The translations under genes and the position numbers were made by a program. Positions 3,750 through 64,000 of a DNA stretch of 64,000 nucleotides are shown here, piece after piece. Within the stretch, counting starts at the first letter, position 1, and each line of letters opens with the position of its first letter. The notes beneath the pieces were generated by a model, which saw only the letters and a list, made by a program, of their open reading frames with translations, was not told where the DNA came from and did not search any database. The stretch lies in the IMG/VR virus record IMGVR_UViG_3300037070_001066, positions 1 through 64,000 of that record; one strand, 5' to 3'. Source of the DNA: a virus.

Positions 3750-3825
3750 CAAATATAATACATTTTTCTTCTAAATGCAAACTATTATTGGGTTATTATC
3801 AAAATGTTAATATTAAGTAATAGCT
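3750..3825 (-). promoter_or_regulatory. Bacteroidota-type promoter with upstream AGCTATTACTTAAT box; drives portal
   Basis: + strand CAAATATA 3750-3757, CAAA 3778-3781, ATTAAGTAATAGCT 3812-3825. Confidence 0.75.
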
Positions 3826-12076: not shown

Positions 12077-12691
12077 TAAAATTGCAATTATTTTTTAAAA
12101 ATTTGGATGATCAGTTAATTCATACTCTGAACACACATATTCTGTATTCCATGTAGTAGCTACTGTATAAGCATACTTATCTATAGAAAACATATAAGTT
12201 ATCTCTACAATAACTCCCTTACCTGAATCAGGTGTAACATGATACACAGTATCTCCTATACTAAATTTGTTGCTTGTCATCTTTCCTATATTTATGGTTA
12301 TACAATTCTTCCAAATACTTATTAAACCCTTCTAAATTAAAACCTTTATGTGACGTCCACCTTCCCTTATCCAATGTATTACCATCAGGCAGTATTACCT
12401 TATACTGCGTATGTACTATACTTTTCTTCCATTCACTAAAGTTCTCCATATCTATTTAGTATATATACTGTAAACGCTTCATTGTCAAATCTCTGATTCA
12501 TGTCCATAAACAACTTAGCAAACGTTGTTGTCCCATCTGGAATAAGTATCGTATACTTACACTGCTTAATCCCCTTAACCCATTCTTTAAACCCTCTAGG
12601 TTGCCCTTCTCTAATTATAACTTCTGCTTCAAACCAAGGTTCTTGTTCTGAGCAATCTTCACTTACTTTTATCATTTCTCTTAATTTTAAA

Positions 12692-12723
12692 CAAAGATAC
12701 AAAATATTTATTTAATTTCCAAA
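12692..12723 (-). promoter_or_regulatory. Bacteroidota-type promoter (TTTG-N20-TATCTTTG)
   Basis: + strand CAAAGATA 12692-12699 and CAAA 12720-12723. Confidence 0.65.
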
Positions 12724-12742
12724 CTTTTTCTCACTTATTTTC

Positions 12743-12783
12743 AAAAAAAAAGTCCCTACAGCTTTTTTAAGGCCATAAGGACT
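12743..12783 (-). terminator. Intrinsic terminator closing the candidate ncRNA
   Basis: Minus strand GTCCTTATGGC-loop-GCTGTAGGGAC (11 bp including G-U pairs) followed by a long T run. Confidence 0.75.
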
Positions 12784-13030
12784 CTACCAAAGGTAGCACG
12801 GATCTTTAACTAATGTTGTTGTTGTATAAGGTTATATAATATATATAATATTTAACTATTAGGCATAAGAAGGTTTCCACGATTTTTGTCGTGAGCCTCT
12901 TGGCTAGCCAGTGTTGTAGAAGTTGTCATACCTTCAAAACCCGTTATCCCCCAAACTCATCCTGTGAGCAGTCCCGTTTCAATCTTTAAGGGGGCAACTA
13001 CATCCTAAACTAGTTGCTTAATATTTTACT
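12743..13030 (-). ncRNA. Candidate ~285-nt structured ncRNA
   Basis: Own promoter (13037-13112) and terminator; several stems; longest ATG-started ORF seen is 25 codons. Confidence 0.55.
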
Positions 13031-13036
13031 TGAGCA

Positions 13037-13112
13037 CAAAGATAATACATTAATTTGACATATGCAAGTATTTTGGCAATTATTTTCAATATATTTGTAT
13101 TAGGTAATAGCT
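13037..13112 (-). promoter_or_regulatory. Bacteroidota-type promoter (CTTG-N20-TATCTTTG) with upstream AGCTATTACCTAAT box
   Basis: + strand CAAAGATA 13037-13044, CAAG 13065-13068, ATTAGGTAATAGCT 13099-13112. Confidence 0.7.
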
Positions 13113-13277
13113 TTTATGAAAAATAGACTTTTTAAAATATTTTTTTCTAGAAAATTTTTCATGAATGTGAGAGTGGGCTAACCCAAGATCATACCCCGAC
13201 TCTTTTCAAATTTTGGGCATACCCGTTCACTTAGAGCGGCTTGCAAAAACATATCACAAACGTATAAATGTATTATT

Positions 13278-19053: not shown

Positions 19054-19367
19054 GGGGCTGTTTTGGTTTTGACTGGTAGTGAGTAGGTAAATAGTTCAGT
19101 GAGAGATAACTCTAAACATAGGTGAATTGAATAAATGGAAAACAAATTGACGCCAATATGGCAAAAGTTCGTAGCTTAATCAACTCTGAGGAGTTTGAAT
19201 TAGCAGCATAATTATTCTAAAGATTTATCATTTAGATTAAAATGATTGGTGGATTGTTAGCTAAAACTAGTTAACCCCTTTGAACGTAACAATTTAAAAA
19301 CGTGAAACTGTATACAACTATTTAGCGAATGCTAATCAGGACGCGGGTTCGAATCCCGCCAGCTCCA
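19054..19367 (+). ncRNA. ssrA: tmRNA (SsrA); predicted tag (A)GKQIDANMAKVRSLINSEEFELAA at 19137-19211
   Basis: 5' GGGGCTG pairs with 3' CAGCTCC-A including G3-U; T-arm GCGGG-TTCGAAT-CCCGC; GAC before the T-arm; tag frame after ATAAAT ends LAA-stop. Confidence 0.92.
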
Positions 19368-19380
19368 CACTCCTAGAGTG

Positions 19381-62370: not shown

Positions 62371-62733
62371 TTATTTTAAAAATTTTAATTTATATAGCGT
62401 ACTATATATTAATTCTAATATGTCATCAATTATTTGTTGTAGATATCCGCAGTCACTTAAAGACTCTCTAAAGGATTTAAAAGACTCAATAAATCCTTCT
62501 AAATAAGAAATTGGACTAATGCTTTCAGAAATAGAAAACGACTTATAGCCTTTTATAATTCCATATTCTCCTTGGTAAGACTCAATGAATCTATCTCTAA
62601 GATCTACAATATCTCTATATAATCCATCTAAAGCTTTATGCTCTGCAAAACTAGATGTTTGCAAGTGAGCAATATGTGCATTTACTTCTATTGCAAATAG
62701 GTTAGACACAAACTCTTGTACTTTATTTTCCAT
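62371..62733 (-). CDS. Ferritin/Dps-like four-helix protein (DUF5856-like)
   Basis: AHIAHLQTSSFAEHKALDGLY...DRFIESYQG...IDDI...YKL. Confidence 0.7.
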   Translation of the reverse strand: MENKVQEFVSNLFAIEVNAHIAHLQTSSFAEHKALDGLYRDIVDLRDRFIESYQGEYGIIKGYKSFSISESISPISYLEGFIESFKSFRESLSDCGYLQQIIDDILELIYSTLYKLKFLK

Positions 62734-64000
62734 AACATTCTATTAATTTTTCTTTTTCATCGTCACTTAACGCCATGAATGACTCCTTAGTCATAGTAGG
62801 ATCTGCTTGTTGGAAAGCCTTAGAATGCTTATTCCATGAATCTTCAATAAACTTATCATAATCTTGTTCAGTAGTCTCTTCTCCAGTTAAATTCAATGCT
62901 CTTGAGGCATTTCCTTCAATAGTCTCAGCTTTGTTACTAATTCCAATTACAGTAGTTTTAGCTCTAGTTAAAGCCGTATAAATACTTCTAGATTTAGATT
63001 TTGCTGATAAAGGACCAACACTATTGATGTCTTGGATATCTACTATAACACTATCATATGTAGAACCTTGAGATTTATGTGAAGTTATAGCATAAGCATA
63101 ATCTATGTTAGCAAAAGACTTTTTAAGTCCCCATGCTTGTGCATACATTTGCTTTCTTAATGCTCCAGGAGGCATTTGTTTAGCCTTAGCGAACATCTCA
63201 GCTACTCTTTCATTAAACTCAACTTTAGATTCATCTGCAAGTACTGGAAATGACATATCAGTATTAGTTCCATCACCACGCTCTACAGTAACTGCATAAG
63301 CTTGAAAACCATTATATGTAGTCTTTCTAACACCTTTTATAGAGAATTCATCACTATTAGATACCTTAGTTCTAGAATCAACATCAAAGTTGTCTTGGAA
63401 CATTATAATATCATTCTCAATTAATTGAGGCACATCTTCTCCGAATACAGCTTTTCTAATATCATTATTGTAAGCAGTTCTTGTAGCGTTTCTATATGTA
63501 ACAACTTTGATTACATTAGGGTTTTGCTCAAGTATACCTCTTTTAAATGAGTCTACTACATCTTCAAATATATGACCAAATGATCTTACAAATACTAAAT
63601 TACCTTTAGGAGATAATGTATCTTTCATAACTCCATCTGGAACAGGATCTTGTTGAGAAGTTTCTAACTCAGAGTTATCCCAATAATAATCTGCAAATGG
63701 AAGTATAGGAGACTCTTCTCCTTGACGAACACGTTCAGTTAGGCTAGCTTTATTCTCAGAATCAAATACAGGACTAATGCTATCTAAATCAGTTTTAGAC
63801 CATCCATGATAATAAGGATTTTTAAGATCTCTAATAGGAGGCAATTGACCTCTATCTCCCAAGAACACTAATTTAGCAGATCTTCTTTTCATCTCCATCA
63901 TCATCTCAATAGCCTCTTCATTAACCATAGAAGCTTCATCTATAATAATAATATCATGTTTAGTAATCTTAGCATCTTCAGAAAATGAATCAGTAAACTC
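62723..64000 (-). CDS. SF1B (Dda/RecD-like) helicase domain protein, 5'-truncated by the window
   Basis: Frame open to 64000 giving IIIIDEASM; GDRGQLPP, RVRQ, YAITSHKSQGSTY, YTALTRA. Confidence 0.85.
   Translation of the reverse strand, partial: EFTDSFSEDAKITKHDIIIIDEASMVNEEAIEMMMEMKRRSAKLVFLGDRGQLPPIRDLKNPYYHGWSKTDLDSISPVFDSENKASLTERVRQGEESPILPFADYYWDNSELETSQQDPVPDGVMKDTLSPKGNLVFVRSFGHIFEDVVDSFKRGILEQNPNVIKVVTYRNATRTAYNNDIRKAVFGEDVPQLIENDIIMFQDNFDVDSRTKVSNSDEFSIKGVRKTTYNGFQAYAVTVERGDGTNTDMSFPVLADESKVEFNERVAEMFAKAKQMPPGALRKQMYAQAWGLKKSFANIDYAYAITSHKSQGSTYDSVIVDIQDINSVGPLSAKSKSRSIYTALTRAKTTVIGISNKAETIEGNASRALNLTGEETTEQDYDKFIEDSWNKHSKAFQQADPTMTKESFMALSDDEKEKLIECYGK

What the first reader, a model, noticed from the sequence alone, without database searches (positions are those of the whole stretch)
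12743..13030. Candidate ~285-nt structured ncRNA co-regulated with portal and capsid genes
Seen: a minus-strand unit bounded by a box-containing promoter (13037-13112) and a strong terminator (12743-12783), whose longest ATG-started ORF is 25 codons. It is GC-richer than its flanks and full of stems: GCAACTA/TAGTTGC (12994-13017), CCCCC/GGGGG (12948-12952/12990-12994), CACGA/TCGTG (12878-12893), CTACC/GGTAG (12784-12796), GAAGG/CCTTC, and a long-range ACGGGTTTT/AAGATCCGT helix whose G-U pairs work only on the minus strand. Inference: an undescribed late RNA. Sharing the promoter class of portal and MCP raises the possibility of an assembly or packaging role (loosely analogous to phi29 pRNA), or a late regulatory RNA.
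Basis: partly seen in the sequence, partly recalled or inferred. Interest (0 to 1): 0.8.

Follow-up and report, generated by a model that had tools for sequence, protein, structure and literature searches.

The report
New double-pseudoknot RNA gene, crAss-like phages
The gene-free stretch is a real, separately transcribed gene for an intricately folded RNA that matches no catalogued family. One group of uncultured soil and freshwater crAss-like phages carries it at the head of their structural-gene arm, and its job is still unknown.

Summary
Window 13030-12743 (minus strand) is a stand-alone unit with a Bacteroidota-type promoter, about 288 nt lacking any conserved reading frame, and an intrinsic terminator.

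**Evidence for a real RNA**
- Folding energy alone is not significant.
- I collected 33 distinct homologues from related crAss-like phage contigs. On these, 96.5% of pair cells are standard pairs, against 35-50% in slid controls, and 19 of 33 pairs show compensatory changes.
- The conserved 150-nt core has helices P1-P4 plus two pseudoknot helices. These tie the P1 loop to the inside of P3, and both are 100% paired.
- No Rfam family matches.

**Context**
- The promoter carries the same upstream box, at the same spacing, as the portal and structural-gene promoters. This supports a "late RNA".
- The RNA is single-copy and confined to one clade.
- It is missing from phi14:2 and from two genomes inside that clade. 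In one of those, a different folded RNA sits under the same promoter.

**Reading**
- It is an accessory cassette, not a phi29-pRNA-like motor part.
- My best guess is a trans-acting RNA that binds a protein or host factor.
- This scan already reported the same family on another genome (e1-6011908).

The parts
13098..13117 (-). Upstream promoter box (contains AGCTATTA). It is shared at identical spacing with the portal promoter (-7 box at 3750) and the structural-gene promoter (1233).
   Evidence: Alignment of five promoters. The box lies 76 nt from the end of the -7 element in most relatives' RNA promoters.
13037..13087 (-). Bacteroidota-type core promoter (-33 region and -7 TAnnTTTG), plus an A/T-rich element at 13076-13087 that is also found before the next two promoters.
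   Evidence: The promoter type matches the host-RNAP middle/late promoters described for phi14:2 (bioRxiv 10.1101/2020.03.07.982082).
12743..13030 (-). Predicted primary transcript, about 288 nt. The 5' end is inferred from the promoter geometry.
   Evidence: The strand is fixed by U-G pairs that would be C-A on the other strand.
12868..13017 (-). Conserved 150-nt core (P1 to the 3' arm of P3). This is the part shared by all 33 distinct homologues.
   Evidence: Covariance model R1 scores 152-210 bits on all members.
12994..13017 (-). P1 hairpin. The 4-bp stem is 13014-13017 with 12994-12997. Its loop carries the PK1 5' arm (13008-13013), an invariant UAGGA (13003-13007) and the PK2 5' arm (12998-13002).
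   Evidence: The P1 stem is invariant, so it is neither supported nor contradicted by covariation.
12949..12993 (-). P2 (12990-12993 with 12949-12952), enclosing a variable hairpin domain.
   Evidence: All 4 pairs show compensatory changes.
12937..12948 (-). Conserved G/U-rich joining region J2/3. No partner was found for it.
   Evidence: Pairing with the 3' tail is not beyond chance.
12930..12936 (-). P3 5' arm. It pairs with 12868-12874.
   Evidence: 7 bp, 99% paired; the outer pairs are compensatory.
12915..12919 (-). PK2 3' arm. It pairs with 12998-13002 in the P1 loop.
   Evidence: Found by a column-pair scan. 5 bp, 100% paired, 3 compensatory pairs.
12904..12909 (-). PK1 3' arm. It pairs with 13008-13013 in the P1 loop.
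   Evidence: 6 bp, 100% paired in 33 sequences, 4 compensatory pairs with four different pair combinations.
12878..12893 (-). P4 hairpin inside P3. Its sequence and length vary.
   Evidence: 6 of 7 pairs are compensatory.
12868..12874 (-). P3 3' arm.
12784..12867 (-). Variable A/U- and CA-rich 3' region, with an A/U hairpin and a small lineage-specific hairpin at 12784-12796.
   Evidence: It is poorly alignable between subgroups.
12743..12783 (-). Intrinsic terminator: 12-bp stem, 9-nt loop and U9 run.
   Evidence: Equivalent terminators follow most homologues.
12692..12742 (-). Next promoter, without the box. It serves the downstream small genes, which makes the RNA a separate unit.

Best explanation
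This is a stand-alone gene for a stable, non-coding RNA of an uncatalogued family.

**Shown**
- Host RNA polymerase would start it at a Bacteroidota-type promoter.
- That promoter carries the upstream box also used by the portal and structural-gene promoters.
- Transcription ends at the RNA's own terminator.
- The 150-nt core folds into four helices. The loop of the first hairpin is clamped by two further helices onto the inside of P3, forming a double pseudoknot with many invariant unpaired bases.

**Inferred**
- The RNA is made in the middle-to-late phase of infection, together with virion genes.
- It acts in trans. The rigid pseudoknotted core would be a specific binding surface for a protein, more likely a host factor than a phage protein.
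- It is an optional cassette that improves infection in some hosts, not a part of the virion assembly or packaging machine.
For: **A real RNA family**
- 33 distinct homologues; 96.5% of pair cells are standard pairs, against 35-50% in slid controls; 19 of 33 pairs are compensatory; no shuffle of 500 reaches the observed values.
- Both pseudoknot helices are 100% paired.
- U-G pairs fix the strand.

**Not coding**
- Only the first 10 codons of the one shared ORF are conserved.
- ORF lengths run from 11 to 97 aa.
- The conserved 3' segment is read in all three frames across members.

**A separate unit**
- It has its own promoter and its own terminator, and in most members a complete promoter follows for the next genes.
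- In L012 and L055 a tRNA-Thr lies between the promoter and the RNA, as expected for a stable RNA gene.

**Late co-regulation**
- The shared box is at fixed spacing in the window and in relatives.
- In phi14:2 this arm is transcribed by host RNAP as the middle and late classes.

**An accessory element**
- One copy per genome.
- It is confined to one portal clade, with two RNA-less genomes inside that clade.
- Under the same promoter, G010 and G002 carry a different ORF-free conserved element.

**No dedicated phage partner**
- No ORF of this genome is present in all RNA-plus genomes and absent from all RNA-minus genomes. The single hit is an antisense frame inside a giant gene.
- All neighbouring gene families also occur without the RNA.

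**Phage-specific**
- The only hit among 185,579 species' genomes is a 104-kb phage-like contig.
Against: - No expression data exist for this RNA. The 5' end, its stability and its timing are inferred.
- No partner is known.
- The 'acts in trans and binds a protein' step rests on gene architecture and on analogy, not on a test.
- The fixed position as the first unit of the structural arm would equally suit a cis-acting role.
- In L007 and L008 no clear terminator follows the RNA.
- The co-occurrence test used only 6 RNA-plus and 4 RNA-minus genomes, and only ORFs of this genome.
Confidence: 0.45

Rival explanations
1. It is a cis-acting leader, in the manner of HK022 put RNAs or the Bacillus EAR element. 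The nascent folded RNA would modify the transcribing host RNA polymerase, so that it reads through the RNA's own terminator and later ones into the structural arm.
For: - It is always the first unit of the arm, directly behind a box-bearing promoter and directly before a strong terminator.
- Some members (L007, L008) lack a clear terminator, so there the RNA is a leader.
- EAR also contains a pseudoknot (my own knowledge).
- An earlier scan note (e1-5954658) proposed the same reading for another crAss RNA.
Against: - In most members a complete promoter follows the terminator.
- The portal and structural genes have their own box promoters, so read-through is not needed.
- Close relatives do without the RNA.
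- The 60-130 nt variable spacer before the terminator is unlike known elements of this kind.
Confidence: 0.2
2. It is a riboswitch-like sensor. The double-pseudoknot core would bind a small molecule and control termination at its own terminator, tuning read-through into the downstream small genes and PhoH.
For: - It has a compact pseudoknotted core with many invariant unpaired nucleotides.
- A terminator lies downstream.
Against: - No known riboswitch class matches.
- The terminator lies 60-130 nt beyond the core, behind a non-conserved spacer.
- The only candidate link between core and tail (J2/3 with the tail) is not beyond chance.
- The downstream genes have their own promoter.
Confidence: 0.08
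3. It is a packaging or assembly RNA analogous to phi29 pRNA. It would bind the portal and form part of the DNA-packaging motor.
For: - It shares a promoter box with the portal and structural genes.
- Its covarying long-range loop pairings could in principle be intermolecular, as in pRNA rings.
Against: - It is absent from phages with homologous portal and TerL, including two genomes nested among RNA-bearing ones.
- The TerL is canonical and full-length.
- There is no match to the pRNA family.
Confidence: 0.03
4. It is a small-protein gene. The conserved AUG inside P3 would start a short peptide (first ten residues conserved), and the RNA structure would be secondary.
For: - The AUG and the next nine codons are present in all 33 members.
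- Several of the few variable sites are third codon positions or conservative changes.
Against: - The ORF length is 11-97 aa.
- The conserved sequence after codon 10 is read in three different frames.
- Variable sites in codons 5 and 8 covary with bases upstream of the ORF, in the P1 loop.
- The AUG abuts the P3 stem and lacks the A-rich leader that Bacteroidota start sites prefer (my own knowledge).
Confidence: 0.04

Closest known systems
Orphan stable RNAs of phages: T4 species 1 and 2 RNAs (rnaC, rnaD), and the large ornate ROOL and GOLLD RNAs
   Same: - A phage-encoded, non-coding, stably folded RNA of unknown function.
- A stand-alone gene; in one lineage it is co-transcribed with a tRNA, as the T4 RNAs are, and ROOL and GOLLD often lie near tRNAs (my own knowledge).
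- Patchy, accessory distribution.
   Different: - No sequence or structure match to ROOL, GOLLD or any Rfam family.
- The core is only 150 nt, against more than 500 nt for ROOL and GOLLD.
- It occupies a fixed slot at the head of the structural arm, under a promoter box shared with virion genes.
phi29 pRNA (packaging RNA)
   Same: - A phage RNA of comparable size.
- Long-range loop pairings supported by covariation.
- Sequence signals suggest expression linked to the portal gene.
   Different: - Not co-inherited with the portal and terminase.
- The phage has a canonical TerL.
- No match to the pRNA model.
- pRNA is an early transcript (my own knowledge).
HK022 put RNAs and the Bacillus EAR element (cis-acting processive antiterminators); also the lambda PR'-tR' '6S' transcript as a positional analogue
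   Same: A short folded transcript that opens a long late or structural transcription arm and is followed at once by a terminator.
   Different: - It is larger and doubly pseudoknotted.
- In most members a full promoter follows the terminator.
- It is dispensable in close relatives.
- No activity was tested.
The same family as reported earlier by this scan on another genome (note e1-6011908), and other head-of-arm RNAs of crAss-like phages (notes e1-5954658, e1-6027894, e1-5964066, e1-5944280, e1-5997360)
   Same: - First unit of the structural arm, box-bearing promoter and double pseudoknot. I re-derived all three here.
   Different: - Those notes are unpublished AI notes on other DNA, and I could not see their sequences.
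- The other notes describe different, unrelated folds in the same kind of slot.

Membership tests
phi29 pRNA | Match to the family's sequence and structure model (Rfam) | tested here: not met
   No hit at E<=10 in the region, nor in three other members.
phi29 pRNA | An obligatory motor part, and therefore present wherever the same portal and packaging ATPase are present | tested here: not met
   The covariance model finds nothing in phi14:2, G001, G002, G004, G005 or G010. G001 and G010 sit inside the RNA-bearing portal clade.
phi29 pRNA | Intermolecular loop-loop pairing that builds a ring on the portal | not testable with these tools
   Covariation cannot distinguish intramolecular from intermolecular pairing.
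put / EAR-type processive antiterminator RNAs | Lies in the leader between a promoter and the first terminator of a long operon | tested here: met
   It is the first unit of the arm in all 21 loci examined, with a terminator directly behind it.
put / EAR-type processive antiterminator RNAs | Downstream genes depend on read-through from that promoter | tested here: not met
   A full promoter follows the terminator in the window and in most relatives. The portal and structural genes have their own box promoters.
put / EAR-type processive antiterminator RNAs | Makes RNA polymerase terminator-resistant | not testable with these tools
   This needs in vitro transcription or reporter assays.
ROOL / GOLLD large ornate RNAs | Match to the Rfam models; size above 500 nt | tested here: not met
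   No hit. The core is 150 nt and the transcript about 288 nt.
Known riboswitch classes | Match to a known aptamer model, with an expression platform adjoining the aptamer | tested here: not met
   No Rfam hit. The terminator is 60-130 nt away behind a variable spacer, and core-tail pairing is not beyond chance.
tmRNA (the phage encodes one at 19054-19370) | tRNA-like ends, a tag reading frame and a model match | tested here: not met
   No model match. Only 7-9-nt chance words are shared with the phage tmRNA. tmRNA presence does not track the RNA.
Small protein-coding gene | A reading frame conserved in length and frame across homologues | tested here: not met
   ORFs of 11-97 aa; three frames are used across the conserved 3' segment.
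Head-of-arm double-pseudoknot RNA of crAss-like phages (this scan's note e1-6011908) | First unit of the structural arm, under a promoter with the box shared with virion genes | tested here: met
Head-of-arm double-pseudoknot RNA of crAss-like phages (this scan's note e1-6011908) | Two pseudoknot helices supported by compensatory changes | tested here: met
   PK1 and PK2 are each 100% paired, with 4 and 3 compensatory pairs.

The most novel reading that the evidence does not exclude
crAss-like phages may keep a dedicated 'RNA slot' at the head of the structural-gene arm, driven by the late-gene box promoter. Unrelated, intricately folded RNAs would be swapped into this slot by recombination. 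This double-pseudoknot RNA and the type-B element of G010 and G002 would be two alleles. The cassettes would be host-specific RNA effectors, for example decoys that neutralise host defences triggered by late proteins such as portal or terminase, or RNA-only assemblies. That would be a so far unrecognised, RNA-based layer of phage-host conflict.
Probability: 0.2. Interest if true: 0.85.

Novelty: new variant of a known kind. Interest (0 to 1): 0.6.

Why it matters
- Crassvirales include the most abundant phages of the human gut and are common in soil and water, yet almost nothing is known about their RNA biology.
- This RNA has a complex, well-supported fold: a double pseudoknot with many invariant unpaired bases. 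It has its own late-type promoter and matches no catalogued family.
- Folds of this kind usually mean a specific molecular partner, such as a protein, a ligand or RNA polymerase.
- A second, unrelated folded RNA can occupy the same promoter slot. Together with this scan's notes of other RNAs at the same position in other crAss-like phages, this hints at a general and unexplored feature of how these phages run their late programme or fight host defences.
- The alignment and model made here make the family searchable and its structure testable in vitro, even without a cultured host.

Tried and rejected
- **Thermodynamic test.** The MFE z-scores are -0.63 and -0.85, not significant on either strand. 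Single-sequence folding therefore gives no support.
- **Deposited phage genomes.** No match. The neighbouring 181-aa protein also found no relatives.
- **Scan with the P1-loop motif alone.** It returned at least 120 unrelated contigs and no new family members.
- **Long-range helix between J2/3 and the 3' tail.** A run of 9-11 complementary bases exists in one subgroup, but shuffled tails do as well in 20-40% of trials. About half of the members have no partner at all. Rejected as a family feature.
- **Terminator/antiterminator alternatives involving J2/3.** Considered by eye only; the pairings are weak and not conserved.
- **Search for a phage protein that co-occurs with the RNA.** None was found. 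The single candidate is an antisense frame within a giant ORF.
- **Relation to the phage tmRNA.** None.
- **Expression.** No RNA holder is listed among public runs; the holders are soil metagenome DNA contigs.
- **Candidate-RNA catalogue of Fremin et al. 2023 (PMC10690425).** No supplementary files are held, so I could not check whether the family is among their unnamed candidates.
- **Other.** One pattern I sent to the own genome had the wrong spacing and found nothing; this was superseded.

Full report
**What the window is.** The window is the first 64 kb of a 104,771-bp IMG/VR virus record rated complete. It encodes a crAss-type portal, a large terminase, a GroEL-like protein, PhoH and NAMPT. 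Its portal is 57% identical to that of Cellulophaga phage phi14:2 (Crassvirales, Steigviridae). Genes left of about 12,700 run on the minus strand and genes right of 13,278 run on the plus strand. The finding therefore sits at the divergent junction, at the head of the minus-strand arm that leads through small genes, PhoH, GroEL and the terminase to the portal.

**Checking the observation.** The -7 element ends at 13037. The upstream box at 13098-13117 recurs at identical spacing before the portal promoter (3750) and the promoter at 1233. The terminator is a 12-bp stem with a U9 run at 12783-12743. The longest ATG ORF is 25 codons. The core is 39% G+C in a genome of about 32%. Single-sequence folding is not better than shuffled sequence on either strand (z = -0.63 and -0.85). 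No Rfam family matches, even at E<=10. The window alone therefore could not settle the matter.

**Homologues.** PhoH, 2.5 kb downstream, located 29 related contigs, and eight of them carry a homologue of the RNA at about 70% identity. An exact-motif scan added contigs from IMG/VR and from metagenomes. The same motif hit only one of 185,579 species' genomes, on a 104-kb contig that looks like a mis-binned phage. A covariance model built on 19 sequences scores every member at 152-210 bits and finds nothing else. This gives 39 matches and 33 distinct sequences (alignment A3).

**Structure.** On A3, 96.5% of pair cells are standard pairs, against 35-50% when the partners are slid by 1-3 columns. 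Nineteen of 33 pairs carry compensatory double changes, and none of 500 shuffles reaches the observed values. The fold, in window coordinates, is as follows.
- P1 is 13014-13017 with 12994-12997. It is invariant.
- P2 is 12990-12993 with 12949-12952. All four pairs are compensatory, and it encloses a variable hairpin.
- P3 is 12930-12936 with 12868-12874.
- P4 is 12889-12893 with 12878-12883. Six of its seven pairs are compensatory.
- PK1 joins the 5' half of the P1 loop (13008-13013) to 12904-12909. It is 100% paired in four different base combinations.
- PK2 joins the 3' half of the P1 loop (12998-13002) to 12915-12919. It is 100% paired with three compensatory pairs. I found it with an unbiased column-pair scan, after an earlier scan note mentioned a double pseudoknot.

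Both targets of the P1 loop lie inside P3, so the fold is a true double pseudoknot. An invariant UAGGA in the loop, the G/U-rich J2/3 and long invariant stretches inside P3 remain unpaired. U-G pairs in PK1 and P4 fix the strand as minus.

The small hairpin at 12784-12796 is lineage-specific. The long-range helix is not beyond chance and is absent from about half of the family.

**Not a protein gene.** One ORF starts at an AUG next to P3 in every member. Only its first ten codons are conserved, and its length runs from 11 to 97 aa. The conserved segment further on is read in all three frames in different members. Its variable codons covary with bases upstream of the ORF.

**Transcription unit and timing.** In most members the RNA has its own promoter and terminator, and a complete promoter for the next genes follows. 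The box recurs 76 nt upstream of the end of the -7 element in nearly all relatives. It also precedes portal or structural-gene promoters in L007 and L035. The two promoters just downstream of the RNA lack the box. The RNA therefore groups with virion genes rather than with its immediate neighbours. In phi14:2 this arm is transcribed by host RNA polymerase as the middle and late classes (bioRxiv 10.1101/2020.03.07.982082). In L012 and L055 a tRNA-Thr(UGU) sits between the promoter and the RNA, which suits a stable RNA. No RNA-seq holder is listed, so all timing is inferred.

**Distribution.** There is one copy per genome, always as the first unit of the arm. phi14:2 lacks it, as do G001, G002, G004, G005 and G010. 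On a portal tree all six complete RNA-plus genomes fall in one clade (support 95/95). That clade also holds the RNA-less G001 and G010, while G005, phi14:2 and G002 lie outside it.

In G010, the promoter is identical to that of its RNA-bearing relative L014. It is followed by a different ORF-free element of about 310 nt. This element is shared with the distant G002 and four more contigs, and it shows some compensatory pairs. The slot therefore holds exchangeable RNA cassettes.

No ORF of this genome strictly co-occurs with the RNA, and the phage tmRNA does not track it.

**How it most likely works.** What is shown is a separately transcribed, accessory, non-coding RNA with a rigid double-pseudoknot core, under a virion-gene-type promoter. 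From this I infer that it acts in trans during the middle-to-late phase by binding a specific partner, probably a host factor (confidence 0.45). The reasons are the independent gene architecture, the lack of a dedicated phage protein and the optional distribution.

The rivals are these.
- A cis-acting antiterminator leader of the put or EAR type (0.2). The position fits, but the following promoter and the RNA's dispensability argue against it.
- A riboswitch-like sensor (0.08).
- A small peptide gene (0.04).
- A pRNA-like packaging RNA (0.03). This is contradicted by the RNA's absence from phages with the same portal and TerL, and by the canonical TerL.

**Comparison and novelty.** The RNA belongs to no Rfam family, and paper searches found no description of it. 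It may be hidden among the unnamed candidates of PMC10690425, which I could not check. In kind, it joins the orphan structured RNAs of phages such as T4 rnaC and rnaD, ROOL and GOLLD. This scan has already reported the same family on another genome (note e1-6011908), and different RNAs in the same kind of slot in other crAss-like phages. Those notes are unchecked leads. I independently re-derived the position, the box and the two pseudoknots.

Noticed in passing
L015:3200-3516 (+), L009:3934-4223 (+); also L357, L344, L311, L351: A second, unrelated ORF-free element of about 310 nt ('type B') occupies the same slot under the same box promoter in phages that lack the double-pseudoknot RNA. It is 70% identical between distant genomes, shows 14 pairs with compensatory changes in RNAalifold, and has no Rfam hit. 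It shares only a short 3' motif with the main family.
   Followed up: partly
L012:2591-2664 and L055:657-730: A tRNA-Thr(UGU) is inserted between the box promoter and the RNA, ending 14 nt before P1. In this lineage the RNA is therefore made as a tRNA-RNA co-transcript.
   Followed up: partly
window 19054-19370 (+): A phage-encoded tmRNA (82 bits) with a 24-residue tag ending in ELAA. Relatives G009 and L048 carry similar long-tag tmRNAs, and most relatives have none.
   Followed up: partly
G008:C1:45654-45726 (locus L210): ARAGORN calls a tRNA with a CUA anticodon (an amber suppressor, labelled Pyl) in one RNA-bearing relative. This hints at stop-codon recoding in that phage.
   Followed up: no
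L055 (DASVUV010000089.1, 104,255 bp): A contig filed under an Allosphingosinicella MAG carries the RNA and the tRNA-Thr, and has the size of a crAss-like phage genome. It is probably a phage contig mis-binned into the MAG.
   Followed up: no
window 12731-12742, 12084-12095, 13076-13087 (minus strand): An A/T-rich 12-nt element precedes three consecutive promoters of the small-gene block. It is distinct from the box shared with the portal and structural promoters, and may mark a second promoter class.
   Followed up: partly
G000 62723 to about 71863 (minus strand; window 62723-64000 and L244:1-7863): One giant open reading frame of more than 2,600 codons, presumably the virion RNA polymerase typical of crAss-like phages. 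Its antisense frames gave a spurious co-occurrence hit.
   Followed up: partly
L015:3517-4059 (+): The 180-aa ORF directly behind the type-B element begins with a motif reminiscent of T5orf172/GIY-YIG-like homing-endonuclease domains (judged by eye only). This would fit a recombination-prone slot.
   Followed up: no
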